64,000 bases of DNA. It comes from an uncultured Alphaproteobacteria bacterium. Lineage in GTDB: Bacteria; Pseudomonadota; Alphaproteobacteria; HIMB59; GCA-002718135. Of this stretch, positions 31,357 to 44,597 are shown piece by piece. The stretch is from the NCBI GenBank assembly GCA_902595805.1, contig CACJRM010000002.1, positions 8,759-72,758 on the forward strand, read 5' to 3'. How positions within the stretch are numbered: the first letter of the stretch is position 1; every line of letters starts with the position of its first letter. The notes beneath the pieces are model-generated. The model ran no database searches. It was not told where the DNA came from and saw nothing but the letters and a program-made list of their open reading frames with translations. A program made the translations under genes and the position numbers.

Positions 31357-31358
31357 TT

Positions 31359-32504
31359 ATGATTTTCAATTATGCATTAACACATCACTGTTGTGAAGAG
31401 TCTATATTTGATGAAACAGTCTATCAAAATTTTATATTTTTATTTGAAGAAGTTATTAATCACAATATTATTTTGATAGTAGATAATGAAAATTATTTAA
31501 TTGATAAATTAAAAAAATCTATACTAACTCATATAGATAATGACGAAAATGATCATATAATTAACTTAATTAGTGAATTAGAGGATCAAAATAAACTTTA
31601 TAAACATAATTATAAATATGATGAAAATGATATTGATTTATACTTAGATTCAATAGTTAAAAAAAATATAAATCTTGATGCAATATTAGTTGATTATATT
31701 GAAGAAAAAAATTTTATGAAAGCAATTCCAATTCAAAAATTTAATAAAAGACATAAATTTGATGAGGAAAGAAGAAAAATAAGTAAATCTGGTTTAAAAC
31801 TTACTGATTTTAATATTAAACAATTAGATAAGCATTACGAAAGGCTTACATGGGACTCGCCAGTTTTTTATTATTATGATTATAATTTGGGAAGTGGGGG
31901 TTTAAAAGATTATGAAATCAAAAATCTAAAATCTATAACTTATAATAATAAAAATTATATTTACTTACCTGGTGGAATTAAAAATAAGCAATTAGAGAAA
32001 TTTAAAGCAGGCTTTACTTCATTAAAAAGAAATATAGAGGAAATATATAAATATTTTAATAAATCTAAGAGGATAACAATAAATATTTATACTCCACAGC
32101 CAAATAAAATTTACAAAAATTTATCTTTAGAAGAAAGAATAGAAGCTTACGAAAAAAATAGGCGAATGCTAGATTTTCTAAACAACAATATATTTGATGA
32201 ATTAAATAATGAAAATATAGAATTTATTCTCTATTTTTACGATTCACTTATGAATGAAGACAGTAAATTTGGATCTTCTGAGCACAATAGAATATTTTAT
32301 TCATTAAGCTCTAAACCATTAGATGTTGCAAAAGGACTTGATATTTATGATGTACCCTCAGGTGTAATTCAACAGGGTAAGTGGCGATTTATTTCAGATG
32401 ATAAAGATGAGATTTATGAAGAAATATTACAAAAAAACCCTAGAATATCTAAAAAATATGAAGAAAAAATAAATCATTTAATATTATCTAGGCCAAGTAC
32501 TTGA
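31359..32504 (+). CDS. hypothetical protein, partner of the ATPase
   Basis: Starts 2 nt after the ATPase stop. 381 aa with no nuclease, HNH, TOPRIM or other motif that I can recognise. Confidence 0.6.
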   Translation: MIFNYALTHHCCEESIFDETVYQNFIFLFEEVINHNIILIVDNENYLIDKLKKSILTHIDNDENDHIINLISELEDQNKLYKHNYKYDENDIDLYLDSIVKKNINLDAILVDYIEEKNFMKAIPIQKFNKRHKFDEERRKISKSGLKLTDFNIKQLDKHYERLTWDSPVFYYYDYNLGSGGLKDYEIKNLKSITYNNKNYIYLPGGIKNKQLEKFKAGFTSLKRNIEEIYKYFNKSKRITINIYTPQPNKIYKNLSLEERIEAYEKNRRMLDFLNNNIFDELNNENIEFILYFYDSLMNEDSKFGSSEHNRIFYSLSSKPLDVAKGLDIYDVPSGVIQQGKWRFISDDKDEIYEEILQKNPRISKKYEEKINHLILSRPST

Positions 32505-32554: not shown

Positions 32555-33433
32555 ATGTATATTTATCCTGTGGGTCGGCTGCAGACCCCAGAGCCTTTAA
32601 AAAATAAACTTTGGAGACTATCCAAAACTAATTCTATTTCACCTGTTGAAGAGTGCGATTTAATAAATAGATGTATTAAGTTTAACTGCAAAAAATCTTA
32701 TAATAAACTTTATTTTTCTCATATTAAAATAGTAAATAAATTTGCATTAAAATTCTCAAAATCCTTTAATGACTTATTTTATGAATTACAGGGGGAAGGT
32801 TTCAAGGGATTATCTCATGCAATACAAAAAATAGATCCTAAGAAAGCAAGATTATCAACCTACGCTCCTTTCTGGATAAGTTATTATATAGAAACATATT
32901 TTTTACAGAATAATTTTGGGAACATAAGTATAGGAGTAAGTAGTGTTGAGAAAAAAATATTTTATTATCTAAGAAATTTAAAAATTGATCATAAGGAACT
33001 TAGTGAAGATGAAATAATCAAAATTGCAAAAAAAAATAAAGTAAAAACCAATCTTGTAAAAGATATTCTTTCATTTGTCAGTGTTAGAAATAAGGAAAAT
33101 AAACAAAAAGATTTAAGTCAGAATTTTGAAAATTCCTCATCATCTAGAACAATCCTAGATAATCTCGCTTATGAGATGAATATAGATCATAATTCATATG
33201 ATGAGACTGATAAAAATATAGACTTGGAAAAATATATGAGAAAAATAAAATCATGGCTATCATGTATAAATAGCAGAGACAGAAGAATATTTGAAAAAAA
33301 ACACTTAATGGAAAAAACATACAATGAAATTGCAAAAGAAGAAAAAATCTCTTTTCAAAGAGTAAGCCAGATAGACAAAAAAAACTTTAATGAACTAAAA
33401 AAATACATGATGGACTATAATTATGCTGCCTAA
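32555..33433 (+). CDS. sigma-70 family RNA polymerase sigma factor, RpoH-like
   Basis: Region 2 LQGEGFKGLSHAIQKIDPKKARLSTYAPFWISYYIETYF. RpoH-box-like ISIGVSSVEKKIFYYLRNLK (compare RpoH VKVATTKAQRKLFFNLRK). Region 4 HTH TYNEIAKEEKISFQRVSQIDKKNFNELKKY. Confidence 0.7.
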   Translation: MYIYPVGRLQTPEPLKNKLWRLSKTNSISPVEECDLINRCIKFNCKKSYNKLYFSHIKIVNKFALKFSKSFNDLFYELQGEGFKGLSHAIQKIDPKKARLSTYAPFWISYYIETYFLQNNFGNISIGVSSVEKKIFYYLRNLKIDHKELSEDEIIKIAKKNKVKTNLVKDILSFVSVRNKENKQKDLSQNFENSSSSRTILDNLAYEMNIDHNSYDETDKNIDLEKYMRKIKSWLSCINSRDRRIFEKKHLMEKTYNEIAKEEKISFQRVSQIDKKNFNELKKYMMDYNYAA

Positions 33434-33466: not shown

Positions 33467-33847
33467 ATGGATGCAAACTATACTAAAGACGAGATTAAAA
33501 TACGTATCCTCGTATTACTTGCCATTGCTGACAAAGAATTTCATGAAAGCGAAGATAAGATGATTAAAAATATACTTAAGGAGCATCAAATAGAATCTAA
33601 AAACTATGATGTTATTAGAGACCAAGTATTAAACTCACCAGAAACTTTTGATGAAATTTGTGCAAATTCACTTAAACAAATTAAAGACAGTGATGAACAG
33701 CAGGATTTGTTAAAAATCCTGTTTGTCTTATCGATGGCAGATTATATTCTTCATGAAGATGAAATTAGATTTATTGAACTTTGTGCAAAGGAATGGGGTG
33801 TCTACGGAGACTCTTTTAAAGAAATGATTAAGGACAATAATGGTTAA
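33467..33847 (+). CDS. TerB-like domain protein
   Basis: Two helical repeats with the TerB-type signature: LLAIADKEFHESEDKMI and VLSMADYILHEDEIRFI. Confidence 0.5.
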   Translation: MDANYTKDEIKIRILVLLAIADKEFHESEDKMIKNILKEHQIESKNYDVIRDQVLNSPETFDEICANSLKQIKDSDEQQDLLKILFVLSMADYILHEDEIRFIELCAKEWGVYGDSFKEMIKDNNG

Positions 33848-35168
33848 AGAATTACCTCCTAGTGCAGCTTCAATGATAATGGCTCTAAGAGCTTTTGGTT
33901 ATACACCAGAGTCTGCCATAGCTGATATCATTGATAATTCTATCAAAGCTAATGCTAGGAACATTGATTTTCAAACATATGATGGAGGCATAGATAAAGC
34001 AAAAAATTATGTTTCTATTTGCGATGATGGAGATGGCCTGAACGATAACGAAATTGTTGAGAAGGCCATGCCTTGGGGTGCGAAAGATGAACTACGTGAA
34101 GAAAAAGATTTAGGTAAATTTGGATTTGGTTTGAAATCGGCCTCTTTATCTCAATGTAAAAAATTAACAGTAATTTCAAAGGGTAGTCAGGGTAAAATCA
34201 AACACTATACTTGGGATGTAGATCATGTTCAGACACATGACAAATGGGAAATTACTGATGATTATTCTGATAGTTTTCAACCACATTTTGATAGACTTGA
34301 TAAAATGAAAAGTGGCACTGTAATCCTCTGGCAAAATCTTGATAGATTATATGAAGCCGAAAATTATGATAAGAAATGGCAACACCGAATTTTAGGAAAG
34401 GTAAGAAATAAAGCTAAAGCACATATTTCAATGATCTTTCATAAATATGCTGATGAAATAAATTTTACATTACAAGGGAATCTCTTTCCTATCAAACCTT
34501 GGAGCCCGTTTTATGAAGATCATATGCATACAATTGCATCTCCAGCTCAAAAAATTCTACACAAAGAGAGTACAACCCTAGTTCAGTCTTTTATATTACC
34601 AGAAGAAAAATATTTTTTAGATGAAGAAAATTTTAAAGGGCCAACTGGTAATTCTACTGATAGACAAGGTATATACGTATATAGAAAAAAAAGATTAATA
34701 GTTCCAGGAGGTTGGCATAATATTACTTCGTCAAGAAATAAACCCATAATTAGTAAAGAAAAATATAACCGTTTAAGAATTATGGTTGATTATGATGGAA
34801 AGAATGACAATGATTGGAGACTTGACGTGAAAAAAGACAGTGTAATTATTCCAGGTTATGTAAGTAATCAACTTTCATCAATAGTTGCGCATCAATTAGA
34901 TATATTACAGAAAGAAAATTATAAAGTAAAACCTATAAAAAAACAGGGAGCTGTAACACCATGGCAAATTATAAATAATTATGGAAAAATAAGTGCAAAA
35001 ATTGATAGACAAAATGAATTAGTAAAAAAAATTATGGATTCAGAAAAATTGAATAGAGATGAATTTGAAAAATTTATGAAAGTTATTGAAACAACAATAC
35101 CACTTGAAAATATAGACTTTAATAATCACAATTTTGATGATGAAGATACAATAGGAGAAAATAGTTGA
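33840..35168 (+). CDS. GHKL-superfamily ATPase (HATPase_c_3 / MORC-MutL-like) of an R-M-associated module
   Basis: N-box IADIIDNSIKANA, G1 box ICDDGDGL, G2 box GKFGFGLKSAS. Confidence 0.8.
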   Translation: MVKELPPSAASMIMALRAFGYTPESAIADIIDNSIKANARNIDFQTYDGGIDKAKNYVSICDDGDGLNDNEIVEKAMPWGAKDELREEKDLGKFGFGLKSASLSQCKKLTVISKGSQGKIKHYTWDVDHVQTHDKWEITDDYSDSFQPHFDRLDKMKSGTVILWQNLDRLYEAENYDKKWQHRILGKVRNKAKAHISMIFHKYADEINFTLQGNLFPIKPWSPFYEDHMHTIASPAQKILHKESTTLVQSFILPEEKYFLDEENFKGPTGNSTDRQGIYVYRKKRLIVPGGWHNITSSRNKPIISKEKYNRLRIMVDYDGKNDNDWRLDVKKDSVIIPGYVSNQLSSIVAHQLDILQKENYKVKPIKKQGAVTPWQIINNYGKISAKIDRQNELVKKIMDSEKLNRDEFEKFMKVIETTIPLENIDFNNHNFDDEDTIGENS

Positions 35169-38092
35169 GTAGCGAAGATTATAAAAGAGTTAGAAAAAAT
35201 GTTCTTGATATTCTTAAACCAGATGATGATGACGATAATAATGTTGTAGAAGAACATGTAATTGAAGAAACTGTTGATCAATTATTTAAAATGCGTCCCA
35301 AATGGAGAGAAACAGTAGATAAAAAACTTCTTATAAAAGATTTATACGAGACACTTTTAGTAAAAATAAACGGAGAAGAAATTATTTTTGCAGATAAAAA
35401 AAATAATAGACATAAACCATGGCTAGATGAAAAAATTAGTAAAATAAAGTGGAAATTTTTTGACAGATATATGGAGCATCTTGAAAATTCAACTGATATT
35501 GCCCCTAGAGCTCTAGCAAAAATTAAATCTATGAGTGCCAAAATTCTATCGAACATTGAAGATCCTGAAAGAGAAGATCTTCAGTGGGATGTGAGAGGGA
35601 TGGTTGTTGGAGAAGTTCAGGCTGGCAAAACAGCAAGTTATATCGCCCTAATTAATAGAGCTATAGACGCAGGTTACAAACGCATTGTAGTTTTATGTGG
35701 ATTAAATAATGATTTACGATCCCAAACACAACAAAGAATAGAGGAGGGCGTAATTGGAAGAGACAACTCCCAGACTGGAGGTATGAACAAAATTATAGGT
35801 GTTGGAAATATAGAGGGGTATGATGATATTCAAAATAAAGTTCAAATACATACTACAAGAGATGACGCAGGTGATTTTAATGTAATAAGAGCTAGAACTT
35901 TTGCTCCAATAGGGGATGCACCAGTTGTTTTAATTGTTAAGAAAAATGTATCTGTTCTCGAAAATATTCTTTTATGGATAATGAGAGATGCTGCCCCATC
36001 ATTTGATGAAAATACCTCATGGGATTGGAGTGAAAGATTATTTAAAGACATCAAAGCAATGTCAATTGATGGAAACTCTCTTAAAACATACGCTCCAAAA
36101 GTGAAAAATAAACCATTACTTCTAATTGATGATGAGTGTGACCAAGCATCAGTAGATACAAATCCTGATCATTCAGTAATTAGTGGAGAAGAAGCAAACC
36201 CTGAACATGATCCAACAAAAACAAATAAGCTTATAAGAAGAATTTTAAAAGCTTATGATAAATCTTCTTATGTTGGATATACCGCCACTCCCTACAGTAA
36301 TGCTTTTATATCAAATGATTTAAAAACAGATAAAGAGGGTGCTGATATTTATCCTAGGGATTTCATAATCAATTTGCCTTCACCAAGTAACTACATTGGA
36401 GCACTTAGAATATTTTCTGATGAAGAAAAAATACCAAATCTAATAAATAATATAAGTGACTACATTGATGAAAACATAGATCCTAATAAAGAGCCTAATG
36501 GATGGATGCCACCTTTTCATAAAATAACTCATAAACCAAAATATAAAAATAATCAGTCTATTCCTCCTAGTTTAGAGAATGCTATAATTTCTTTTTTAAT
36601 ATCTTGCGCAATTAGAAAGTTAAGAGGTTATGATAATGGTAATAGCATGCTCGTACATGTATCAAGGTATGTGCCAGTATCAGAAATTGTAGCAGATCAA
36701 ATACAGCAATATGTAACAGATTTAGAGAGTATAATTGATGGTAATGAATTTTATTTAAACAAAGTTAATAAAATCTATGAAACAAATTTTAAAAATAAAC
36801 TTAATAATGAATACAATATTGGAAGAGAAGAGGTTAATTTTGATAATATAATAAAAATTATTCAACAAGATATTGAAATTGGAAAAATAGTCGTTGAGCT
36901 TGTTAATGGATCTGCTTTAAGTAAAAAAGAATATGATAGATCGCTGAGAGCAAAAAAGAATATCATTGCAGTTGGCGGTCAACGTCTTTCAAGAGGACTT
37001 ACATTAAAAAGTCTAATGATTAGTTATTTTTTAAGAACTGCAAAAAGACCTTTAACAGATACAATGACACAAATGGGTAGATGGTTTGGATACAGACCTC
37101 TTTATGATGATTTATGTAAATTATATTTAACAGGTGAGTCAGAACATAGTTTTAGAGAATTTGCTGAAAGAGATTATGAATTTAGATCAAAAATTGAAGA
37201 TATGAACGACCAGGAAAGAACACCAGAACAATACATTCTGATGATTGAAAGAGATCCTCATTACGAACTTACTTCTAAAAGAAAAACGAAATATACTGCA
37301 AATGTTCAATTAGATTTTAGTGGCTGGTTTGCTCAAACAGTAGTTTTGCACAAAGAAAATAATAAAGAAGAGTTAAATAAAAAAAATAGGGAAGCTGTTA
37401 AAAATCTTATAAAAAATATCGGAAAAACTTCAGACAAAAGAGATAAAAATATTAATTCATACCTTTGGAAAAATGTAGATAGTAAAAAAATAATCGAATT
37501 TTTTAAAAATTTTCGACATCATAAAGATAATAGAAAAGTCAGTCCAGAGAGCTTTAATCATTACATTGAAAGAATGAATAAAAGAAATGAATTAAATTTT
37601 TGGTCAGTTGGAATAATATCATCAAGTGACAATGTTAAAGAATTATTAATTCATGAAGATTTAAAAGAATATAAAATAAAACCTCATGTTAGAAAATCAA
37701 ATAATCCAGAAAAAGATGATGAGTCAACACATCGAATTCAAACACTATCTTCTGCAACTCATGAAAGTTTTGATTTAAATGATGAAGAATATAATGCAGC
37801 ATTAATAAAATGGAAAGAGTCAGGTGGTGAAGAAAAAAAAGAATCAAAAAGGCTATATTATAGATGGGCTAGAGGTTCAGCCTTTCTTGAAAATATTTAC
37901 TCCGATAAAAATGACAATGGTATCCGCCCCTTACTCCTAATTTATCCAGTAATTGGTAAACCAAATGATGACACATCAAAAGAATTTCCAATGATTGGAT
38001 TGGCAGTTGCGTTTCCAAAATTAGGAAAAAGTGATCCTAAACAATACATTATGTCATTAGATCAAAAAAAGAGGTTGTTTGAAGAAGAATAG
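35165..38092 (+). CDS. Z1-domain protein (SF2 helicase-like ATPase)
   Basis: Walker A GEVQAGKTAS, DExx box LLLIDDECDQASVDT, motif III GYTATPYSN. Z1 signature GGQRLSRGLTLKSLMISYF...DTMTQMGRWFGYRPLYDDLCKLY. Confidence 0.8.
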   Translation: MSSEDYKRVRKNVLDILKPDDDDDNNVVEEHVIEETVDQLFKMRPKWRETVDKKLLIKDLYETLLVKINGEEIIFADKKNNRHKPWLDEKISKIKWKFFDRYMEHLENSTDIAPRALAKIKSMSAKILSNIEDPEREDLQWDVRGMVVGEVQAGKTASYIALINRAIDAGYKRIVVLCGLNNDLRSQTQQRIEEGVIGRDNSQTGGMNKIIGVGNIEGYDDIQNKVQIHTTRDDAGDFNVIRARTFAPIGDAPVVLIVKKNVSVLENILLWIMRDAAPSFDENTSWDWSERLFKDIKAMSIDGNSLKTYAPKVKNKPLLLIDDECDQASVDTNPDHSVISGEEANPEHDPTKTNKLIRRILKAYDKSSYVGYTATPYSNAFISNDLKTDKEGADIYPRDFIINLPSPSNYIGALRIFSDEEKIPNLINNISDYIDENIDPNKEPNGWMPPFHKITHKPKYKNNQSIPPSLENAIISFLISCAIRKLRGYDNGNSMLVHVSRYVPVSEIVADQIQQYVTDLESIIDGNEFYLNKVNKIYETNFKNKLNNEYNIGREEVNFDNIIKIIQQDIEIGKIVVELVNGSALSKKEYDRSLRAKKNIIAVGGQRLSRGLTLKSLMISYFLRTAKRPLTDTMTQMGRWFGYRPLYDDLCKLYLTGESEHSFREFAERDYEFRSKIEDMNDQERTPEQYILMIERDPHYELTSKRKTKYTANVQLDFSGWFAQTVVLHKENNKEELNKKNREAVKNLIKNIGKTSDKRDKNINSYLWKNVDSKKIIEFFKNFRHHKDNRKVSPESFNHYIERMNKRNELNFWSVGIISSSDNVKELLIHEDLKEYKIKPHVRKSNNPEKDDESTHRIQTLSSATHESFDLNDEEYNAALIKWKESGGEEKKESKRLYYRWARGSAFLENIYSDKNDNGIRPLLLIYPVIGKPNDDTSKEFPMIGLAVAFPKLGKSDPKQYIMSLDQKKRLFEEE

Positions 38093-39092
38093 ACAATCAA
38101 TTTTTGAAATAACACTTGATACAATTGATATATCAAATCAAAAAGATGGTTTAATAGCAAAAAAACTTCCCATTAATAATGAGAATAGAATTTTTGCAGC
38201 ATATAAAGCTCCTGAAAAACTTATTACACTAATCGTTGAAGTTCCAAGTAGTATAGTCAAGTTTGAAAATAAATTTGAGTCAAAAGGCTTTGATGTAGTT
38301 CATCAAATAAAAAAAAATGAAAAAAAAATAACTCAAGTCATAATCTTTCTTAAGGATAATAAATTTAAGGAAATTTTTTTTGAAATAGTCGATTTATTTA
38401 TCCAAAAAATAAAGGATATAGAGGATGATAAGGAATTTTATAATAATCTAATTCATCGCATAAAACTCTTTATCGATTTTTTTGAAAAATATTCTAAGTC
38501 TGGAATGCTAATTAATCAACAGCAGGGTTTATTTTCCGAGCTTGAAATAATGGAAAAATATTTTTTTGATCATTATGGAATTTCGAAAACTCTAGATATG
38601 TGGAGAGGTCCAAAAAGTGGACTTCATGATTTTACAATTAAAGGGACTTCTCTTGAAGTAAAATCTACAAATAATTTTCCTGCACTCGAAGTAAATATAA
38701 CAAATGAGAACCAATTAAATAATGAAAGAGTAAATAATCTTTTTTTATCTGTACTGGAAATTATTAGAGGATCGAGTACTGGAGAAAGTCTTGCAGAAAA
38801 GGTAATAAAATTAAGAGAAATAATTAACTCAAAGGAAGAAGCTCTGATAAATAAGTTTAATGAACTATTGAATGAGTATGGTTATTATGACTCGCAATCA
38901 TTTAATTATCTTGAGACATTTAAGTCAAATGTTATTTATTTTTATAAAGTTGAAAAAAATTTCCCAAGAATTCTACCCTCGTCATTACTGAGAGGTATAA
39001 AAAATGTAAAATATAGGATAGAGTTGAACAACTGTGAAGAATACCAAGTTGAATATGAATTAATAAAGAAAGAATTTGATAATGTCATATAA
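38079..39092 (+). CDS. PD-(D/E)XK motif protein (DUF4420-like)
   Basis: TTG start. GLHDFTIKGTSLEVKST gives a D...E-x-K catalytic arrangement. Position between Z1 and AIPR matches the known neighbourhood. Confidence 0.65.
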   Translation: MKKNRQSIFEITLDTIDISNQKDGLIAKKLPINNENRIFAAYKAPEKLITLIVEVPSSIVKFENKFESKGFDVVHQIKKNEKKITQVIIFLKDNKFKEIFFEIVDLFIQKIKDIEDDKEFYNNLIHRIKLFIDFFEKYSKSGMLINQQQGLFSELEIMEKYFFDHYGISKTLDMWRGPKSGLHDFTIKGTSLEVKSTNNFPALEVNITNENQLNNERVNNLFLSVLEIIRGSSTGESLAEKVIKLREIINSKEEALINKFNELLNEYGYYDSQSFNYLETFKSNVIYFYKVEKNFPRILPSSLLRGIKNVKYRIELNNCEEYQVEYELIKKEFDNVI

Positions 39093-41103
39093 GGAAGAAA
39101 TTAAAAATTTTTCATATAAAATTCATAATAGTGCAATAGAACTAGATCCATTTAAAGAAAATGGTTTTGTAATTGCCAGCTGTCAAATAATGCATGATGC
39201 CGGCATAATCGAGGATTATGAAGTTATGCATTTTGAAAAAAAAGTTCAACACACAACATATAAAATTAATGCTTCAAATAGCTATAACAATAAAGAGGCT
39301 CTAGATCTTTTTGTATGTAATTTTTCCGATTTTGTTGAGCCAAAAAAAATTGATTCAAAGATGTTGAAATCTGAAGCTAAAAAATTACATTCCTTTTTTA
39401 AAGACTCTCTTGCTTCACTATCAGGATTATTGCCAAAAAATACAGATGTTTATTCAATAGCCAGATCAATAAAAGATAATGCCAAAAAATTAAAAAAGGT
39501 AAATATGTATGTTCTGACTGATTGTATCTGTCCAATTGAAACAAAAGTGACTGATAAGATTAAGGGAATAGATGTCGTAATTGAATTTATTGATTTAGGT
39601 AAATTATATCAATATTCAGTAATTGGAAAAATATCAGATCAAATAAATGTAGAATTCGATCTTTCAAAAGATAAAATTGAGTGTGTGAAGTCTGGAACTA
39701 ATCCAAGAAAAGTTGAGAGTTACCTAGCAATCATTCCAGGGGAAACACTTTATAGACTATACGAATATTGGGGATCACAATTAATGGAACTAAATGTTCG
39801 TTCTTTTCTTCAAGTCTCAGGTAAAGTTAATAAGGGTATTAGAACAACTCTTATCGAAGAACCTAATATGTTTTTTGCATATAATAATGGTATTGCTGCA
39901 ACAGCAGAAAAAATTAAATTTGTTGTTGAGGATGGAGTCAAATACATAAAAGAAATAGTAGGTTTTCAAATTGTTAATGGCGGTCAAACTACTGCAAGCA
40001 TACACCGTGCCAAAAAAAATGATGATATAGATTTGGATGAAATATCTATTCCTGCAAAAATATCAGTTATTCAAAAAGAAGATATTAAAACTTTTGTTCC
40101 ACTTATTTCAAGATATTCAAATAGTCAAAATGCTGTTAAGCAATCTGATTTTCATTCTGATAATATTTATCTAAAAAAAATAGACGAATTAAGCAAAAAA
40201 ATTTTTATTCCAGGAGAAAGTGGTAGATGGTTTTTTGAGAGAAAAACTGGTGAATTTCAAAACGAAAAACACAAACATTCAAATACGCCTGAAACAAAAA
40301 ATAGATTTAACACACTCATCCCACCATCTAGAAAAATAAGTAAGGAAGAAATTGCTAAATATCATAATTGTTGGGAATGCTTACCACACATAGCTTGTAT
40401 GGGAGTACAAAAGAATTTTATATATTTCATGAATGATCATGCAGTTGTTGCAGTTAAGGAGAAAATTATTGATGAAGATTATTATAAGAGCTTAATAGCA
40501 AAGGCAATTTTATATCGTGGTATAGAAAAAATTATTAAAAAATCGGAACTTAAGGCATATAAAACACAAATATGTAATTACACTATTTCTTTACTATCAT
40601 TCCTATCTAAACAAAAATTTAATTTTTCTGCTATCTGGCAAGATCAACAAATTTCGAATGAACTATCTGATATAATTTTTAATATGATCGAAAAGATTAA
40701 TACTTGTCTTCGTAAAAGTGCAGGCGATCTCAATCCTGGAGAATGGCTTAAAAAAGCTGATTGTTGGAAAGAATTAAAAAAAGAAAATTTTTTACTTCCT
40801 AAGAACAATATTCCAATTGAACTTGTTGTTTCAGTAAAAAAATCAAAATCAAGAGCAGTATCTTTTGATGAAGAATATTACGAGCATCTAGATTTATGCA
40901 AACAAGTAACTGAAAAAAGCTGGTATAAAATTGCTAAATTTATCCAAGAGAACCCTGAATTAGAAAGTGAATTTCACGGAATGTGTCTAACTCTTGCAAA
41001 GATGGCGGCAGATGAATGGTATAATGATCCAACACCAAAAATGGCAGAAGATGCATACGCTATTATAGATCTTGCATTAGAAAACGAAGTAATAAAAATA
41101 TAA
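39076..41103 (+). CDS. AIPR (abortive infection phage resistance) family protein
   Basis: LNVRSFLQVSGKVNKGIRTTLIEEPNMFFAYNNGIAATAE...FQIVNGGQTTASI is the AIPR core. Confidence 0.7.
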   Translation: MIMSYKEEIKNFSYKIHNSAIELDPFKENGFVIASCQIMHDAGIIEDYEVMHFEKKVQHTTYKINASNSYNNKEALDLFVCNFSDFVEPKKIDSKMLKSEAKKLHSFFKDSLASLSGLLPKNTDVYSIARSIKDNAKKLKKVNMYVLTDCICPIETKVTDKIKGIDVVIEFIDLGKLYQYSVIGKISDQINVEFDLSKDKIECVKSGTNPRKVESYLAIIPGETLYRLYEYWGSQLMELNVRSFLQVSGKVNKGIRTTLIEEPNMFFAYNNGIAATAEKIKFVVEDGVKYIKEIVGFQIVNGGQTTASIHRAKKNDDIDLDEISIPAKISVIQKEDIKTFVPLISRYSNSQNAVKQSDFHSDNIYLKKIDELSKKIFIPGESGRWFFERKTGEFQNEKHKHSNTPETKNRFNTLIPPSRKISKEEIAKYHNCWECLPHIACMGVQKNFIYFMNDHAVVAVKEKIIDEDYYKSLIAKAILYRGIEKIIKKSELKAYKTQICNYTISLLSFLSKQKFNFSAIWQDQQISNELSDIIFNMIEKINTCLRKSAGDLNPGEWLKKADCWKELKKENFLLPKNNIPIELVVSVKKSKSRAVSFDEEYYEHLDLCKQVTEKSWYKIAKFIQENPELESEFHGMCLTLAKMAADEWYNDPTPKMAEDAYAIIDLALENEVIKI

Positions 41104-41107
41104 TTTT

Positions 41108-41548
41108 ATGAATGATATAGTTTCTAAATCTCAACGCTCATTAATTATGAGCAAAATAAGATCTAAAAATACAAAACCTGAAATAATAATTAGAAGTTTT
41201 CTTCATAACTGTGGATTTAGATTTCGTTTACACCAGAAACATTTACCTGGTAAACCAGATATTGTAATGCCAAAATATAATAGCGCACTTCAAATTAGAG
41301 GGTGTTTTTGGCACCCACATGTAAACTGTAAGTTATCAAACCTTCCAAAAACCAATACAAATTTTTGGAAAAATAAGCTCTCAGGCAATGTAATCAGGGA
41401 TAAAAAAAATGATAGACTTCTTAAGCAACTGGGATGGAAATTGATAGTGATTAGAGAATGTCAGATTAGAAATAAAAATAAAATTGAAAAAACATTTGGC
41501 ATATTAAAAAAGAAAATTCTCAAAAACTACAATGAAAGAGTTGTATGA
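41108..41548 (+). CDS. vsr: very short patch repair endonuclease
   Basis: SQRSLIMSKIRSKNTKPEIIIRSFLHNCGFRFRLH..LPGKPDIVMPKYNSALQIRGCFWHPH is the canonical Vsr sequence. Confidence 0.9.
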   Translation: MNDIVSKSQRSLIMSKIRSKNTKPEIIIRSFLHNCGFRFRLHQKHLPGKPDIVMPKYNSALQIRGCFWHPHVNCKLSNLPKTNTNFWKNKLSGNVIRDKKNDRLLKQLGWKLIVIRECQIRNKNKIEKTFGILKKKILKNYNERVV

Positions 41549-42321
41549 TGGAAGTGTGGAAAAACCAAATCAAGGAAAGAAGAAAGGAATATATCAAGAC
41601 GGTAAAATATTATTTTAAGGAAACAATGACTAAAATTTCCAATGAAGTAATTTTTAATAAAAAAGATGATATTTCAAAATATTTTAGACAAGTTTATAAA
41701 AAATCATACGAGTTAATGATGCATGATCAGGAAAAATTTAGAAAATCAGTATTAAGAGATCTAATGATTACCAATAATATCGATGAAAAGGATGGATTTG
41801 AGCAAAATGTTTTGGATAACTACAACGAACTTTATGAACTTACAAAAAGCGACTCACAGTCAAATAAATCTAGGTCTGGAATAATACTGGAGCTACTGGT
41901 GATAGACCTTTTGGAAACATTTGAATATCCCCATGATAATCAGAAAAAAATTGGCAAAAAGAAATTTGCCAAGGATTTGGGGAAACAAATCGACACCATA
42001 GTTCCAGGAATAGATGAGTTTAAAAGAAATCCATCTAACTGTCTTTTACTTTCGCAAAAAACAACGGTCAGGGAAAGATGGCAGGAGGTAGGAGAGGAAG
42101 TTTCAAGAACAGGAGCCAATGAAGCTTATCTTATTACATTTGGAGAAGATTTAACTGACAATATTATTGAAACGGCTAAAGAACAGAGAATTCACTTTGT
42201 TGTACCCAAAAATATAAAGGAAAGTAAATTTAATAATAAAAATACAGTGTACTCATTTGAAAATTTTTTTAAAAGAAGAATTAAAAGAACCTTGCAACTG
42301 TTAGATAATGAAAACAATTAA
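41545..42321 (+). CDS. type II restriction endonuclease candidate, EcoRII-C-terminal-domain-like (PD-(D/E)XK)
   Basis: NKSRSGIILELLV ... QIDTIVPG ... LLLSQKTTVRERWQEVGEEVSR ... AYLITFGEDLT ... IHFVVPKN parallels the EcoRII catalytic domain pattern (KSRAG..LE / PDFxFP / KTTxKDRWRQ / LVVP). Flanked by vsr and dcm. Confidence 0.6.
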   Translation: MMEVWKNQIKERRKEYIKTVKYYFKETMTKISNEVIFNKKDDISKYFRQVYKKSYELMMHDQEKFRKSVLRDLMITNNIDEKDGFEQNVLDNYNELYELTKSDSQSNKSRSGIILELLVIDLLETFEYPHDNQKKIGKKKFAKDLGKQIDTIVPGIDEFKRNPSNCLLLSQKTTVRERWQEVGEEVSRTGANEAYLITFGEDLTDNIIETAKEQRIHFVVPKNIKESKFNNKNTVYSFENFFKRRIKRTLQLLDNENN

Positions 42322-43309
42322 AACAATAGATCTGTTTGCTGGAATAGGTGGAATGAGAATTGGAGTTGAATTAGCAGCCAGATCATTAAAATTAAAACAT
42401 AAAAATGTATTTTCTTCAGAAATCGATAAATATTGCTGTCAGTTATATGAATTAAATTTTGGAGAAAAACCTTTTGGAGATATTACAAAGCCAAAGAATA
42501 GTGAAATAGATAAAATCATACCCAATCATGATTTATTACTTGCTGGTTTTCCCTGCCAGCCTTTTTCTCAAGCTGGATTGAAAAAGGGTTTTGAAGATAC
42601 AAGGGGTACATTATTTTATGATATTTTGAGAATATTAAAAAAGAAAAAGCCAAAGGCTTTTCTGCTTGAGAATGTATCCAACCTTAAAGGACACGATAAT
42701 GGTAGAACTCTCAAAATTATTCTCGAAAATTTAAATAAAATTGGATACTCTGTTCCATATCCAGAAATATTAAGTTCAAAGGATTTTGGATTGCCTCAAA
42801 ATAGAAGAAGAATTTTTATAGTTGGCTTTCTAAAAAAACTTAAATGTGAATTTGAATGGCCAAGCACAATTAACAAAAAAACAAAGGTAGGGGATATTCT
42901 TGAACCTAAATCAAAAGTTCCAAAGAAATATTTTATTTCTAATAAACTTTGGGCTGGCCATAAAAGAAGAAAGAAGCAAAATAAATTAGATGGAAAGGGA
43001 TTTGGATTTGGACTGGTCAATAGTAAATCTCAATATACAAATACAATTTCTGCAAGATATTATAAGGATGGAAGCGAAATATTAATACAGCAGGGGAGTG
43101 GAAATCCTAGAAAGTTAATGCCTGTGGAAGCAAAAAGATTACAGGGTTTTCCAAAGACATTTAAGATTTCTTCTATTTCCGACGCACAATTATATAAACA
43201 ATTTGGAAATAGTGTGAGCGTTAATGTTATTAGAGAAATTTCCAAGAATATAATAAAATCACTCCAGGGTAAAAAAATTAAAAATTACCAATTTGACTTA
43301 GGATTTTAA
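42308..43309 (+). CDS. dcm: DNA (cytosine-5)-methyltransferase
   Basis: Motif I DLFAGIGGMRIG, motif IV GFPCQPFSQAG, motif VI ENV, motif VIII QNRRRIFIVG, motif X FGNSVSV. Confidence 0.93.
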   Translation: MKTIKTIDLFAGIGGMRIGVELAARSLKLKHKNVFSSEIDKYCCQLYELNFGEKPFGDITKPKNSEIDKIIPNHDLLLAGFPCQPFSQAGLKKGFEDTRGTLFYDILRILKKKKPKAFLLENVSNLKGHDNGRTLKIILENLNKIGYSVPYPEILSSKDFGLPQNRRRIFIVGFLKKLKCEFEWPSTINKKTKVGDILEPKSKVPKKYFISNKLWAGHKRRKKQNKLDGKGFGFGLVNSKSQYTNTISARYYKDGSEILIQQGSGNPRKLMPVEAKRLQGFPKTFKISSISDAQLYKQFGNSVSVNVIREISKNIIKSLQGKKIKNYQFDLGF

Positions 43310-43338: not shown

Positions 43339-43776
43339 ATGAATGAAAATAAAAAAATTAAAATGATTTCAAAAATGATAATTGATGCCAATCTGGAAAA
43401 TTTCGAAATTGATGATATAATTTCCATATTCAAAACATCTGGTTATGAATTCAATAATAAAGAAATTGAGATAGCAAAAAATATCGTAGGAATTGAAAGA
43501 GAGGGCCAAACAAATAATTTAGATGATAATATAGAAGAAGAAAAACAATGGATCAGTGAACCGCCTGATAATTGTGATATTTGTGGAAAAAAAATCAAAC
43601 AATACTTTGTAGATGGAAGAACAAATTTAGATCTACATGCTCCGTGGGGTTTTATGTGTATTTTGTGCCATGAAGAATCAATGGTAGGTTTAGGTACTGG
43701 TAAAGGTCAGTTATATTATAAAAAAGAAATAAATGGTAAATTTAAATGGATAGGCCTTTATGGTTTTAATTATTAA
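43339..43776 (+). CDS. hypothetical protein with C-terminal CxxC...CxxC zinc-binding module
   Basis: CDICGKKIKQYFVDGRTNLDLHAPWGFMCILCH...GLGTGKGQLY resembles a small Zn module common in phage and plasmid ORFs. Confidence 0.5.
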   Translation: MNENKKIKMISKMIIDANLENFEIDDIISIFKTSGYEFNNKEIEIAKNIVGIEREGQTNNLDDNIEEEKQWISEPPDNCDICGKKIKQYFVDGRTNLDLHAPWGFMCILCHEESMVGLGTGKGQLYYKKEINGKFKWIGLYGFNY

Positions 43777-44228
43777 TGAAAAAAAATTATATTAGAAATG
43801 CTGAAGGCAATAATCAATGGAAATTGAGATCCAATCACGAAATTCAAAAAATAATAAATAAATATCCAGATCACTGGACTAAAAAAGATTTTAGAGGAGA
43901 GGGGAAAAATAATTCTAAGAAAATACTAACGAAAAGTGAGACTGAAAGAGAGGGTCTGGTATTTAAATATTCTGGAAAAGCAAAACAGCCTTTAAAAGAG
44001 GTATACAAACACTCAACACAAGAAAGCATTCAAGAATTTGAACAAAAGCTAATTTCTGAAGAAATTTTTAGAGATAGAGCTAGGGTAAAAAAACAAAGAG
44101 ATTTAATGCCAATAGAGGAAAAAAAAATTAACAATAGAGAGAGATATCGTAATTTTACAAAAAAGCAGAAAGAAGCAAAAAGAATTAGTAACGAGAACTA
44201 TCGTAAAAAGAAGTTAGATAGAAAATAA
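43776..44228 (+). CDS. hypothetical basic protein
   Basis: ATG overlaps the upstream stop (TAATG). K/R-rich C-terminus RERYRNFTKKQKEAKRISNENYRKKK. Confidence 0.5.
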   Translation: MKKNYIRNAEGNNQWKLRSNHEIQKIINKYPDHWTKKDFRGEGKNNSKKILTKSETEREGLVFKYSGKAKQPLKEVYKHSTQESIQEFEQKLISEEIFRDRARVKKQRDLMPIEEKKINNRERYRNFTKKQKEAKRISNENYRKKKLDRK

Positions 44229-44300
44229 AATTCTTTTTATAATTCATTGAATTTAAATTTTTTTTTATTAATAAAGAAAATGAATCAAATAAATTTATAG

Positions 44301-44597
44301 ATGAAAAAAAATATTAAGTCTGAATTACTAAAACAAGGACAAAAGCATGTCAAAGAACATTATGACTATTACTCAGGTGTAAACTGTCCAGAATGTCAAT
44401 CTCACTACCTTAGAAATCCTGATGAGCAAGAATTTCGAAGACTGGTTAACTTAAAGAAAGTAAATAAAAATGATTACAATTATACGTATGTATGTTGTGA
44501 GTGTGATAATCTTTTTGTTGAGAGATTTGAGAATAAGGATCCAGAGTTTGAAGTAAACTCTGAATTATACTATGCGAAAAATGATGTATATGAATAA
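44301..44597 (+). CDS. hypothetical zinc-ribbon protein
   Basis: CPECQS ... CCECDN pair. Confidence 0.45.
   Translation: MKKNIKSELLKQGQKHVKEHYDYYSGVNCPECQSHYLRNPDEQEFRRLVNLKKVNKNDYNYTYVCCECDNLFVERFENKDPEFEVNSELYYAKNDVYE

What the first reader, a model, noticed from the sequence alone, without database searches (positions are those of the whole stretch)
33467..43309. Eight-gene translationally coupled operon: TerB-like, MORC-like GHKL ATPase, Z1 helicase, DUF4420 nuclease, AIPR, Vsr, EcoRII-C-type endonuclease, Dcm
Seen in sequence: eight + strand ORFs are joined by overlaps or tiny gaps. The junctions are 33840/33847, 35165/35168 (TTGA), 38079/38092, 39076/39092, a 4-nt gap at 41103/41108, 41545/41548 (ATGA) and 42308/42321. 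They are almost certainly one transcription and translation unit.

Established: a GHKL ATPase + Z1 SF2 ATPase + PD-(D/E)XK protein + AIPR neighbourhood linked to Dcm and Vsr was predicted computationally as an R-M-like system. I recall this from Iyer, Abhiman and Aravind 2008, on MutL/MORC homologues in R-M systems. To my knowledge it has no published mechanism.

Unusual here:
- The same operon also encodes a separate, conventional-looking EcoRII-C-type endonuclease between vsr and dcm. One methyltransferase would therefore protect against two different restriction machineries.
- The operon opens with a TerB-like protein whose stop overlaps the GHKL ATPase start.
- An RpoH-like sigma factor sits 33 nt upstream.

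Inference: this is a composite, possibly two-tier system, with simple cleavage plus an ATP-driven MORC/Z1/AIPR module. The AIPR module may act as an abortive-infection back-up. The TerB-like protein may serve as a sensor or tether.
Basis: partly seen in the sequence, partly recalled or inferred. Interest (0 to 1): 0.78.

Follow-up and report, generated by a model that had tools for sequence, protein, structure and literature searches.

The report
TerB-led MZA defence operon in SAR11
This is a SAR11 (Pelagibacteraceae) copy of the known but mechanistically unsolved MZA anti-phage system, in its common DNA-methylase-linked form; what is unusual is a lineage-specific TerB gene at its head, a short sigma factor in place of the usual MzaA, and an inserted ordinary restriction enzyme that shares the same methylase.

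Summary
All eight ORFs, their coordinates and their overlaps are as described, and all eight Pfam assignments pass the gathering cut-offs.

The core is MzaB-C-D-E of the MZA system. Sources cite Gao 2020 for it and call it validated. Its Dcm/Vsr-linked form was predicted by Iyer 2008 and Miller 2022, and a December 2025 preprint lists Mza in SAR11.

In 85 loci surveyed:
- Dcm accompanies MzaBCDE in 75 and Vsr in 53, so that part is ordinary.
- The upstream sigma gene sits where MzaA sits. Here it is a 292-aa sigma-32-like protein, not the canonical ~700-aa ankyrin + RpoD-like MzaA.
- The TerB leader is the real distinguishing feature. Every TerB-leader relative recovered lies directly upstream of MzaB wherever the contig extends that far. 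Their MzaB proteins form one deep clade.
- The endonuclease is Ecl18kI/SsoII-like, with intact catalytic and CC:GG-reading residues. The Dcm target-recognition domain is CCWGG-type.
- CC(N/W)GG-family enzymes appear only in loci with that Dcm type (window, L001, L009, L041).
- Sister loci keep the orthologous Dcm without the enzyme, so it and Vsr are insertions that share a resident methylase.

Verdict: a new variant of a known kind. The two-tier mechanism is plausible but untested.

The parts
29191..31356 (+). AAA_15/DUF3696 ABC-type ATPase (721 aa), first gene of the co-directional block. Probably a separate two-gene defence module together with the next gene.
   Evidence: Pfam gives AAA_15, AAA_21 and DUF3696. 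PADLOC gives PDC-M55A, NsnB and AriA-like hits. It is present upstream of sigma in the five SAR11-type locus records L001-L005 (three distinct loci) and again in L087/L088, which re-sample L003/L005. It is absent from 80 other MZA loci. It is only 43% identical to its L001 counterpart, where MzaB is 95%.
31359..32504 (+). Unknown 381-aa partner of the AAA_15 ATPase.
   Evidence: No Pfam, NCBIfam, PADLOC or PHROGs hit. It always follows the ATPase in SAR11-type loci. It is 42-45% identical to the L001 and L002 orthologues.
32555..33433 (+). Short sigma-70-family factor (292 aa, sigma-32-like), positional analogue of MzaA.
   Evidence: Pfam Sigma70_r4. NCBIfam TIGR02937 scores 62.7 against a cut-off of 42.9, and the best named hit is RpoH-like at 101 bits, below its cut-off. 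No hit to the MzaA model at E <= 0.01. A gene in the same position is conserved in L001, L002 and L005. Canonical MzaA is ankyrin repeats plus an RpoD-like sigma, about 650-900 aa as called.
33467..33847 (+). TerB-domain protein (126 aa). Its stop overlaps the MzaB start by 8 nt. It is the lineage-defining leader.
   Evidence: Pfam TerB scores 36.7 bits against a gathering cut-off of 24.4 and covers 7-113 of 118 profile positions. Twin conserved motifs: AxADKEFHExE (Ala21, Asp22, Lys23, Phe25, His26, Glu29 invariant) and SMADxILHEDE (Ser89 invariant, the rest conserved in at least 90%). Relatives down to 31% identity sit directly upstream of MzaB in 13 of 16 metagenomic loci. In two more, one AspBHI_N gene intervenes, and one contig ends before MzaB. 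Six distant leaders also score above the gathering cut-off. The AlphaFold2 model is all-helical with pLDDT 81.5. Foldseek against the PDB was not significant.
33840..35168 (+). MzaB: MORC/MutL-like GHKL ATPase (442 aa).
   Evidence: HATPase_c_3 E 3.5e-31. PADLOC MzaB E 6e-54 and NCBIfam MzaB E 1e-69, the latter at 235 bits against an equivalog cut-off of 850. Weak match to the MutL N-terminal domain in the PDB. The Bergerat-fold motifs D29..D32-N33, D62xGxG66 and G92xxGxG97 are conserved.
35165..38092 (+). MzaC: DEAD-Z1 SF2 helicase-like motor (975 aa).
   Evidence: Z1 E 1.5e-57. NCBIfam MzaC E 2e-177. The invariant motifs GxVQxGKT (149-156), DDEAD (322-326), TATP (373-376) and QMGR (636-639) match the unusual Walker A and QxxR motif VI described for the CglI H-subunit.
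38079..39092 (+). MzaD: DUF4420 PD-(D/E)XK nuclease-fold protein (337 aa).
   Evidence: DUF4420 E 7.7e-55. NCBIfam MzaD E 7e-39. E154, D184 and E193-x-K195 are conserved in at least 85% of 78 homologues. This is the E-D-ExK pattern noted by Iyer 2008.
39076..41103 (+). MzaE: AIPR_N + AIPR protein (675 aa). ATG 39082 is an alternative start.
   Evidence: AIPR E 2.3e-85 and AIPR_N E 3.6e-27. NCBIfam MzaE E 6e-119. No PDB relative.
41108..41548 (+). Vsr very-short-patch T:G mismatch endonuclease (146 aa). It is an insertion relative to L001.
   Evidence: Pfam Vsr E 1e-27. TIGR00632 scores 125 bits against a cut-off of 97.85. D51 and F67-W68-H69 are conserved. It is absent from L001, L002 and L005 but present in 53 of 85 MZA loci.
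41545..42321 (+). Ecl18kI/SsoII-like type IIP restriction endonuclease (258 aa), predicted to cut CCNGG or CCWGG.
   Evidence: EcoRII-C E 6.6e-15. PDB R.Ecl18kI 2fqz E 6e-27 and PspGI 1.6e-6. The alignment shows that the counterparts of Ecl18kI E125, D160, K182 and R186-E187-R188 are conserved. It is 56% identical to the L001 gene although the flanking genes are 86% identical. There are only 7 relatives in 5.8 billion proteins.
42308..43309 (+). Dcm: C5-cytosine methyltransferase (333 aa) with a Dcm/EcoRII-type (CCWGG-like) target-recognition domain.
   Evidence: DNA_methylase E 5e-100. TIGR00675 above its cut-off. The target-recognition segment alone matches only Shigella Dcm 3lx6/3me5 at E 9e-11. 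Orthologues with the same target-recognition domain follow MzaE in L002 and L005, which have no restriction enzyme.

Best explanation
The locus is a TerB-led subtype of the MZA anti-phage system, sitting in a genomic island of a Pelagibacteraceae (SAR11) genome.

Shown here:
- MzaB (MORC/MutL-like GHKL ATPase), MzaC (DEAD-Z1 motor), MzaD (PD-(D/E)XK nuclease fold) and MzaE (AIPR) are encoded in the canonical order with overlapping reading frames and intact catalytic motifs.
- A resident Dcm with a CCWGG-type target-recognition domain is part of the conserved unit.
- The Ecl18kI/SsoII-like endonuclease, and in this genome also Vsr, were inserted between mzaE and dcm.
- The head of the unit is a short sigma-32-like factor plus a TerB protein translationally coupled to MzaB. 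This replaces the ankyrin + RpoD-like MzaA of canonical systems.

Inferred mechanism:
1. Dcm methylates the inner cytosine of CC(N/W)GG and so marks self DNA.
2. The small type IIP enzyme cuts unmethylated incoming double-stranded DNA at those sites.
3. MzaC, like the CglI H-subunit, translocates on DNA at the expense of ATP. Together with the MzaB ATP-driven clamp it licenses cleavage by MzaD on DNA that lacks the mark.
4. Vsr repairs the T:G mismatches that 5-methylcytosine deamination creates.
5. The sigma factor and TerB act as the regulatory or sensing head. The roles of sigma, TerB and AIPR are unknown.
For: Family assignments are.

Motifs are intact in MzaB, MzaC, MzaD and Vsr and in the restriction enzyme.

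The DEAD-Z1 motor precedent, ATP-driven dsDNA translocation that activates a nuclease, comes from PMC5861437.

Dcm belongs to the unit:
- It is adjacent to MzaBCDE in 75 of 85 loci, almost always without a classical restriction enzyme.
- In the sister loci L002 and L005 an orthologous Dcm directly follows MzaE. Its divergence (52-54% identity) is comparable to that of MzaC and MzaE (45-64%).

Specificities match:
- The Dcm target-recognition domain hits only the CCWGG methylase Dcm.
- The restriction enzyme hits Ecl18kI (CCNGG) and PspGI (CCWGG).
- CC(N/W)GG-family enzymes occur only in loci whose Dcm carries that signature (window, L001, L009, L041). None was found among the 67 loci with other target-recognition domains, although gap ORFs there were only partly screened.

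TerB is a component:
- Thirteen of 16 metagenomic relatives sit immediately upstream of or overlapping MzaB.
- Two more are separated from MzaB only by an AspBHI_N gene, and one contig ends before MzaB.
- TerB-linked MzaB proteins form one clade in a neighbour-joining tree without support values.

The sources read cite Gao 2020 for mzaABCDE. Miller 2022 calls it validated. The SAR11 preprint says it defends against ssDNA phages.
Against: - No experiment on this locus exists, and the Gao 2020 paper itself could not be read.
- Canonical enterobacterial MZA, such as L023, has no linked methylase. The Mza machinery may therefore not depend on methylation.
- MZA-linked methylases have heterogeneous target-recognition domains: 67 of 75 are not CCWGG-type. 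A fixed sequence-reading model is therefore unlikely. Which Mza protein, if any, reads methylation is unknown.
- CCNGG is only mildly depleted in the window, and not significantly (42 sites, O/E 0.77).
- The window proteins score well below the NCBIfam equivalog cut-offs for MzaB-E, so they are distant relatives of the tested system.
- The TerB fold could not be confirmed by structure search.
Confidence: 0.6

Rival explanations
1. There are two independent neighbours. A methylation-independent MZA system works as it does in enterobacteria, where no methylase is linked. It happens to abut a conventional Vsr-R-M type II cassette whose Dcm protects only against the Ecl18kI-like enzyme.
For: - Canonical MzaABCDE loci L023 and L025 lack a linked Dcm.
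- The restriction enzyme, Vsr and Dcm form a self-sufficient and specificity-matched set.
- Defence islands commonly juxtapose unrelated systems. The AAA_15 module upstream evolves independently of the Mza genes.
Against: - Dcm is adjacent to MzaBCDE in 75 of 85 loci across many phyla, usually with no restriction enzyme at all.
- In the sister loci L002 and L005 the orthologous Dcm follows MzaE without any restriction enzyme. The methylase therefore predates the enzyme in this lineage.
- An orphan methylase this tightly and widely linked argues for a functional tie.
Confidence: 0.2
2. The MORC/Z1/DUF4420/AIPR genes together with Dcm and Vsr are mainly a methylation-reading DNA maintenance or surveillance machine, in effect an extended very-short-patch or mismatch-type pathway. 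5mC would recruit or activate the complex rather than protect from it. Defence would be secondary.
For: - MutL homologue + Vsr + Dcm is the very-short-patch repair triad highlighted by Iyer 2008.
- 5mC-reader (AspBHI_N/SRA-like) genes recur in MZA loci. One version without a nuclease domain lies between TerB and MzaB in L005 and L093.
- L012 carries a HhH-GPD glycosylase in place of Vsr.
Against: - Sources read here describe mzaABCDE as a validated defence system active against phages.
- The locus lies in a variable island with integrases and another defence-type ATPase.
- The system is patchily distributed and mosaic, as defence genes are.
Confidence: 0.12
3. The operon is a decaying or silent remnant with no current function.
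For: SAR11 genomes are streamlined, so a block of more than 14 kb is costly. Some related ENA contigs carry fragmented copies of mzaC, dcm and the restriction gene.
Against: All eleven ORFs are full length relative to their orthologues, and their catalytic motifs are intact. The fragmented copies are confined to a few ENA assemblies in which several genes are broken at once. That pattern looks like assembly or frameshift error.
Confidence: 0.05

Closest known systems
MZA (mzaABCDE) anti-phage system, attributed to Gao et al. 2020 Science by the sources read; PADLOC MzaA-E; NCBIfam NF041931-NF041935
   Same: It has MzaB (GHKL/MORC-like), MzaC (DEAD-Z1), MzaD (DUF4420 PD-(D/E)XK) and MzaE (AIPR) in the same order with overlapping frames. 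A sigma-family gene sits immediately upstream.
   Different: - Identity to the nearest non-marine relatives is only about 30-36%, and scores are far below the NCBIfam equivalog cut-offs.
- MzaA (ankyrin + RpoD-like, 726-position model) is replaced by a 292-aa sigma-32-like protein without ankyrin repeats, plus a separate TerB protein.
- Dcm, Vsr and a type II restriction enzyme are linked, whereas the enterobacterial form (L023) has none.
Dcm/Vsr-linked MORC - Z1 helicase - novel RE - AIPR neighbourhoods (Iyer, Abhiman and Aravind 2008, PMC2292703) and the Z1 + DUF4420 + C5-methylase systems, types I, II-A and II-B, of Miller et al. 2022 (PMC9523054)
   Same: The gene content is the same: MORC, a Z1 helicase with the DThhQxxRhFG-type motif, an E-D-ExK nuclease, AIPR, a cytosine methylase and Vsr. 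The figure legend of Iyer 2008 lists a Candidatus Pelagibacter neighbourhood and a 'T2ENDO' gene.
   Different: Neither paper mentions TerB (no occurrence in the main text of PMC2292703). The short sigma, the TerB leader and the matching of restriction enzyme to Dcm specificity are not described. The Iyer figure itself is not held, so I cannot tell whether exactly this arrangement was drawn.
CglI / NgoAVII ATP-dependent restriction enzymes (R2H2; PMC5861437, PMC4267653)
   Same: Both have a DEAD-Z1 motor with the unusual Walker A (Q in GxxQxGKT) and the short QxxR motif VI. Both pair a C5 methylase with a nuclease that needs ATP-driven dsDNA translocation.
   Different: The nuclease partner here has a PD-(D/E)XK fold (DUF4420), not a B3 + PLD R-subunit. 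MzaC is 975 aa, with extra N- and C-terminal regions. The system adds a GHKL ATPase and an AIPR protein.
SsoII / Ecl18kI / PspGI / EcoRII type II R-M systems with Vsr (CCNGG / CCWGG)
   Same: The endonuclease aligns to R.Ecl18kI (E 6e-27) with the catalytic E-D-K and the R-E-R CC:GG reader conserved. The methylase target-recognition domain matches Dcm. Vsr is intact.
   Different: The methylase starts at motif I and lacks the roughly 71-residue N-terminal extension of its best PADLOC MTase_II profile. No C-protein is present. The genes are embedded in, and translationally coupled to, the MZA operon rather than forming a stand-alone cassette. The endonuclease is shorter (258 against 305 aa) and divergent at its N terminus.

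Membership tests
MZA anti-phage system (mzaABCDE) | MzaB GHKL/MORC-like ATPase | tested here: met
   PADLOC MzaB E 6e-54 and NCBIfam MzaB E 1e-69 over 12-428. The Bergerat motifs are conserved. At 235 bits it is below the equivalog cut-off of 850, so it is a homologue, not an equivalog.
MZA anti-phage system (mzaABCDE) | MzaC DEAD-Z1 helicase-like protein | tested here: met
   Z1 E 1.5e-57. NCBIfam MzaC E 2e-177 at 591 bits, against a cut-off of 1500. Walker A, DDEAD, TATP and QMGR are invariant.
MZA anti-phage system (mzaABCDE) | MzaD DUF4420 PD-(D/E)XK protein and MzaE AIPR protein, in the order B-C-D-E | tested here: met
   Searches give the assignments. The E-D-ExK motif is conserved. The gene order and overlaps match 78-81 of 85 surveyed loci.
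MZA anti-phage system (mzaABCDE) | MzaA: ankyrin repeats + RpoD-like sigma-70 factor (about 700 aa) upstream of MzaB | tested here: not met
   The window sigma is 292 aa, has no ankyrin repeats, and does not hit NCBIfam or PADLOC MzaA at E <= 0.01. L023 MzaA scores 829 bits against a cut-off of 800 and has Ank + r2 + r4. A sigma-family gene is nevertheless present in the same position.
MZA anti-phage system (mzaABCDE) | Confers phage resistance | not testable with these tools
   Only second-hand statements about homologues are available. The Gao 2020 text is not held.
Type IIP R-M of the SsoII/Ecl18kI/PspGI/EcoRII-C group | Endonuclease with the EcoRII-C/Ecl18kI catalytic core (E, D, K) and the R-(D/E)-R CC:GG recognition motif | tested here: met
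   The alignment to 2fqz shows the equivalents of E125, D160, K182 and R186-E187-R188 conserved. Pfam EcoRII-C is above its gathering score.
Type IIP R-M of the SsoII/Ecl18kI/PspGI/EcoRII-C group | Cognate C5 methylase of matching specificity | tested here: inconclusive
   The target-recognition domain matches only the CCWGG methylase Dcm (E 9e-11). Co-occurrence of that signature with CC(N/W)GG-family enzymes agrees with this. CCNGG cannot be told apart from CCWGG by sequence, and no methylome is available.
Type IIP R-M of the SsoII/Ecl18kI/PspGI/EcoRII-C group | Regulatory N-terminal extension on the methylase (as I recall for M.SsoII) or a C-protein | tested here: not met
   The methylase begins at motif I (MKTIKTIDLFAGIGG) and aligns to positions 72-397 of PADLOC MTase_II PDLC03272. 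No C-protein-like ORF is present.
TerB domain family (PF05099) | Profile match over the whole domain, above the curated threshold | tested here: met
   36.7 bits against 24.4, covering profile positions 7-113 of 118. Six distant leaders score 25.3-39.6 bits.
TerB domain family (PF05099) | TerB three-dimensional fold | tested here: inconclusive
   The AlphaFold2 model is a 7-helix bundle with pLDDT 81.5. Foldseek against the PDB gave nothing better than E 1.1.
CglI/NgoAVII-type ATP-dependent restriction enzymes | DEAD-Z1 motor subunit | tested here: met
   The motifs of PMC5861437, the Q-containing Walker A and QxxR motif VI, are present and invariant.
CglI/NgoAVII-type ATP-dependent restriction enzymes | R-subunit with a B3-like DNA-binding domain and a PLD nuclease | tested here: not met
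   No PLD or B3 domain was found in any ORF of the block. The nuclease candidate is DUF4420, a PD-(D/E)XK protein.

The most novel reading that the evidence does not exclude
The TerB-led loci would be a distinct, deep-branching MZA subtype of low-GC aquatic bacteria. In it a small TerB protein, translationally coupled to the MORC-like ATPase, takes over the sensing or regulatory role that the ankyrin + sigma-70 MzaA plays elsewhere. It does so with or without an accessory sigma-32-like factor.

This subtype also offers a natural series built on one CCWGG-type Dcm:
- no accessory gene (L002)
- a nuclease-less 5mC reader of the AspBHI_N type (L005, L093)
- a type II enzyme (L001)
- a type II enzyme plus Vsr (the window)

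That series would imply that the Mza machinery itself reads CC(W/N)GG 5-methylcytosine as the self mark. It would give a direct handle on the unsolved MZA mechanism.
Probability: 0.3. Interest if true: 0.55.

Novelty: new variant of a known kind. Interest (0 to 1): 0.4.

Why it matters
MZA is widespread. Its mechanism is unknown and no structure has been solved for MzaC, MzaD or MzaE.

This SAR11 lineage supplies three useful things:
1. A compact variant in which the large MzaA is replaced by two small proteins (sigma and TerB) that are easier to dissect.
2. A sequence-based prediction that the self mark is CC(N/W)GG 5mC. This is testable with existing marine methylome or nanopore data.
3. Naturally occurring sister loci with and without the extra restriction enzyme, Vsr or a 5mC reader.

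It also documents a block of more than 14 kb, with several defence-type modules, in a streamlined SAR11 genome. That is relevant to the debate on how SAR11 resists pelagiphages. None of this is a new category of system.

Tried and rejected
- Site avoidance. CCNGG and CCWGG counts in the 64-kb window give O/E 0.77 (42 sites). This is too weak to support or refute the predicted target.
- Promoter scan. The number of hits equals that in shuffled sequence in this AT-rich DNA, so it is uninformative. All terminator-like hits are intragenic.
- Island borders. No tRNA gene was found and no att-like direct repeats. The borders are undefined.
- TerB fold. Foldseek against the PDB gave no significant match.
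- Gao 2020. Neither the DOI nor the PMC id is held. Statements on experimental validation are therefore second-hand.
- Methylase swap. I considered that the Dcm had arrived together with the restriction enzyme. I rejected this because the L002 and L005 Dcm co-diverge with the Mza core and share the target-recognition domain.
- Split MzaA. I considered that TerB is a fragment of a split MzaA or MzaB. I rejected it for three reasons. Canonical MzaA has ankyrin repeats, not TerB. My TerB HMM hits nothing in the 80 other loci. The extra length of the canonical MzaB model is C-terminal.
- AAA_15 + unknown 381-aa pair as integral Mza components. I think this unlikely. The pair is absent from TerB-only and canonical loci. 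It is only 42-43% identical between the window and L001, where Mza genes other than MzaC are 86-95%.
- Restriction enzyme homologue search. It returned only 7 relatives, and the non-SAR11 one lies on a contig too short to give context.

Full report

Yes. The ORF listing returns the eight + strand ORFs at exactly the stated coordinates. Reading the junctions gives gaps of -8, -4 (TTGA), -14, -17, +4, -4 (ATGA) and -14 nt.

The TTG starts of the Z1 and DUF4420 genes are the only start codons available. Each has an AGGAG or AGAGG Shine-Dalgarno sequence. The AIPR gene may start two codons later, at ATG 39082.

No terminator-like hairpin lies between genes. The promoter scan found no more hits than in shuffled sequence in this 28% G+C DNA, so it says nothing.

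All eight domain calls pass Pfam gathering scores. The co-directional block is in fact longer. An AAA_15 ATPase (29191-31356), an unknown 381-aa ORF, and the sigma gene precede TerB with gaps of +2, +50 and +33 nt.

**2. What is it?**

PADLOC and NCBIfam identify the four central proteins as MzaB, MzaC, MzaD and MzaE of the MZA anti-phage system. E-values run from 1e-17 to 1e-177, but scores are far below the NCBIfam equivalog cut-offs.

A 2025 review table places mzaABCDE among the systems of its reference 20. Miller et al. 2022 cite Gao et al. 2020 for it and call it validated. They describe mzaA as a sigma factor. They also describe related systems built on Z1 + DUF4420 + cytosine methylase, with AIPR, MORC, a regulator and repair endonucleases.

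Iyer et al. 2008 predicted the MORC - Z1 helicase - E-D-ExK nuclease - AIPR - Dcm - Vsr neighbourhood. Their figure legend lists Candidatus Pelagibacter and a 'T2ENDO' gene.

The window comes from a Pelagibacteraceae genome. Exact protein look-ups place it on a 148,756-bp NCBI contig. A flanking protein clusters with proteins named Pelagibacteraceae bacterium.

A December 2025 preprint already lists Mza operons in SAR11. It says that Mza defends against ssDNA phages and that the mechanism is unknown. No PDB entry is related to MzaC, MzaD or MzaE.

**3. How common is each feature?**

I scanned species-representative genomes with an MzaC alignment. I kept the best 80 loci, which span many bacterial phyla and include one Methanoregula.

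I annotated them, together with five close marine locus records, using iterated HMMs. The five records represent three distinct loci, because L002, L003 and L004 are the same locus. Counts out of 85:

| Gene | Loci |
|---|---|
| MzaB | 84 |
| MzaD | 81 |
| MzaE | 78 |
| Dcm | 75 |
| Vsr | 53 |
| sigma-like | 38, nearly all immediately upstream of MzaB |
| TerB leader | 5 |
| AAA_15 and the unknown 381-aa protein | 5 each |
| Ecl18kI-like endonuclease | 2 (L001; L009, a Caulobacter) |

So MORC/Z1/DUF4420/AIPR with Dcm and Vsr is the ordinary architecture.

Unannotated ORFs next to Dcm/Vsr revealed other accessory genes:
- full-length AspBHI/MspJI-like genes (AspBHI_N + Mrr_cat) in L006, L029 and L076
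- an MvaI/BcnI-family enzyme in L041
- a HhH-GPD glycosylase in L012
- a 453-aa EcoRII-C protein in L009

An extra nuclease is therefore a recurrent minority feature, at roughly one locus in ten. It is not unique to this window.

**4. The close relatives**

Three independent marine loci (MzaC 70%, 55% and 45% identical) carry a common set. On the minus strand they have ARPP-1, with DUF2130 beyond it in L001, L004 and L005. Then follow AAA_15, the unknown protein, a short sigma, TerB, MzaBCDE and Dcm. The window has the same DUF2130/ARPP-1 pair.
- L001 adds the EcoRII-C gene but no Vsr.
- L002 has neither.
- L005 has a 220-aa AspBHI_N-only gene between TerB and MzaB.

Per-gene identity, window against L001:

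| Gene | % identity |
|---|---|
| MzaB | 95 |
| MzaD | 90 |
| MzaE | 86 |
| Dcm | 86 |
| TerB | 83 |
| MzaC | 70 |
| sigma | 62 |
| restriction enzyme | 56 |
| AAA_15 | 43 |
| unknown 381-aa protein | 42 |

The block is therefore mosaic, and the AAA_15 pair behaves as a separate module. The Dcm of L002 and L005 (52-54% identical) diverges about as much as MzaC and MzaE do (45-64%). The methylase is thus a resident, orthologous component, and the endonuclease and Vsr are later insertions.

**5. The restriction-modification part**

The endonuclease aligns to R.Ecl18kI (2fqz, E 6e-27), PspGI (1.6e-6) and weakly to EcoRII. The counterparts of Ecl18kI E125, D160 and K182 and of the R186-E187-R188 reader are conserved.

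The whole methylase scores best against M.HhaI. Its target-recognition segment alone, however, matches only the CCWGG methylase Dcm (3lx6/3me5, E 9e-11).

The signature SARYYKDGSE occurs in only 8 of 75 Dcm-bearing survey loci: L001-L005, L009, L013 and L041. It also occurs in the TerB-only locus L091. CC(N/W)GG-family endonucleases (window, L001, L009, L041) occur only in loci whose Dcm carries this signature. Other loci with the signature (L002-L005, L013, L091) have no such enzyme.

I infer a CC(N/W)GG target. The mild depletion of CCNGG in the window (O/E 0.77) neither supports nor refutes this. Vsr has its conserved D51 and FWH69 residues.

Most MZA-linked methylases have other target-recognition domains. 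The Mza core therefore cannot be tied to one fixed sequence.

**6. The head of the operon**

Canonical MzaA (for example Enterobacter L023, 829 bits against a cut-off of 800) consists of N-terminal ankyrin repeats plus an RpoD-like sigma. It is about 650-900 aa as called.

The window's sigma is 292 aa and has no ankyrin repeats. It is sigma-32-like (101 bits, below that model's cut-off). It passes the generic sigma-70 model TIGR02937. It does not hit the MzaA models. It is a positional analogue of MzaA, not a member of that family.

In non-marine loci the sigma gene abuts or overlaps MzaB, which leaves no room for another gene.

The TerB protein shows two conserved motifs, AxADKEFHExE and SMADxILHEDE. 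A metagenome scan with the TerB-leader alignment gave 16 loci, all with 25-36% G+C. Two of them (L087, L088) re-sample contigs already in hand (L003, L005).
- In 13 the TerB gene is immediately upstream of or overlapping MzaB.
- In two the AspBHI_N gene intervenes.
- One contig ends before MzaB.

Eleven of the 16 are more distant loci. In the ten whose MzaB could be compared, it is 29-34% identical to the window's.
- No sigma gene was detected upstream of TerB in any of the eleven.
- Where enough upstream sequence exists, it holds an opposite-strand ORF or an unrelated gene. TerB is then the first gene of the operon.
- One locus, L091, has TerB-MzaB-MzaC-MzaD-Dcm and no AIPR gene.

Six of the distant leaders pass the Pfam TerB threshold.

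In a neighbour-joining tree of 90 MzaB proteins, without support values, all TerB-linked MzaB form one deep clade. That clade is separate from the MzaA-linked clade and from the leaderless clades.

The AlphaFold2 model is a confident helical bundle (pLDDT 81.5). Foldseek against the PDB was not significant. No held paper links TerB with prokaryotic MORC or MZA systems.

**7. Mechanism**

Shown:
- MzaB has intact GHKL motifs.
- MzaC has the unusual Q-containing Walker A, DDEAD, TATP and QMGR. These are the hallmarks of the CglI H-subunit. In that enzyme ATP-driven dsDNA translocation is needed to activate the nuclease.
- MzaD has E-D-ExK.

Inferred:
- Dcm marks self DNA at CC(N/W)GG.
- The type IIP enzyme gives immediate site-specific cleavage.
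- The MzaB/C/D(/E) complex acts as an ATP-dependent translocating nuclease on DNA that lacks the mark.
- Vsr offsets 5mC deamination.
- Sigma and TerB regulate or sense.

The main rival is that MZA is methylation-independent, as its enterobacterial form without a linked methylase suggests, and merely abuts a type II cassette. The near-universal linkage of an otherwise orphan Dcm, and the enzyme-less sister loci, argue against this.

**8. Verdict**

The system itself is known by name, is reported to be experimentally validated in homologues, and has already been noted in SAR11.

What I found no description of:
- a TerB-led clade of MZA
- the replacement of MzaA by a short sigma-32-like factor plus TerB
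- the evidence that a CC(N/W)GG-type restriction enzyme and Vsr were inserted next to a resident, specificity-matched Dcm

This is a new variant of a known kind and of moderate interest.

Noticed in passing
window 29191-32504 (+): An AAA_15/DUF3696 ATPase (PADLOC PDC-M55A/NsnB/AriA-like) and an unknown 381-aa protein with no hit in any library. The pair is conserved upstream of sigma in all SAR11-type loci. It is only 42-45% identical where Mza genes other than MzaC are 86-95%. It looks like a separate, fast-diversifying two-gene defence module.
   Followed up: partly
window 26957-29099 (-): A DUF2130 (365 aa) and ARPP-1 (317 aa) gene pair, divergently oriented from the block. It is conserved next to the block in L001, L004 and L005 at 71-74% identity (60-62% in the L002 group). 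It could be another conflict-system module or part of the island backbone.
   Followed up: partly
window 43339-44597 (+): Three small ORFs (145, 150 and 98 aa) directly after dcm, with gaps of +29, -1 and +72 nt. They are absent from L001. The first hits phrog_29767 (unknown function, E 8.5e-7). The others have no significant family hit.
   Followed up: partly
window 46027-48368 (+): Two tandem paralogous tyrosine integrase genes, which share repeats D1 and D4 (72-74% identity over 53-78 nt). No tRNA gene or att-like direct repeat was found to define island ends.
   Followed up: partly
window 35165-38092 (MzaC) against L001 10001-12940: MzaC is only 70% identical between the window and L001, while the flanking MzaB, MzaD and MzaE are 86-95%. 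Identity dips to about 58-64% around residues 200-250, 400-450, 550-600 and 700-850. This may reflect diversifying selection or recombination in a specificity region.
   Followed up: partly
L005 6480-7142 (= L088); L093, about 1300-1960: A 220-aa protein consisting only of the AspBHI N-terminal (SRA-like 5mC-reading) domain, without a nuclease domain, is inserted between the TerB gene and mzaB in two sister loci. Full-length AspBHI_N + Mrr_cat genes sit next to Dcm/Vsr in L006, L029 and L076.
   Followed up: partly
L091 722-7444: A TerB-led locus with TerB-MzaB-MzaC (1030 aa)-MzaD-Dcm and no AIPR gene. It shows that AIPR is dispensable in part of the TerB-led clade.
   Followed up: no
L012 5311-6009 (-): A HhH-GPD/EndoIII-type glycosylase lies beside the Dcm in a locus where no Vsr was detected. 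It may be an alternative T:G repair function.
   Followed up: no
window 23179-23228 and 23545-23594: A 50-nt direct repeat (90% identical, 366 nt apart) in an intergenic-looking region left of the island.
   Followed up: no
ENA contigs of 34,332, 12,873, 7,222 and 61,200 bp (proteins P0145-P0153, P0157, P0158, P0183, P0184, P0186): Near-identical copies of mzaC, dcm and the restriction gene are called as fragments on these assemblies. Several genes are broken at once, which looks like frameshift-prone assembly rather than pseudogenisation. This was not verified.
   Followed up: no
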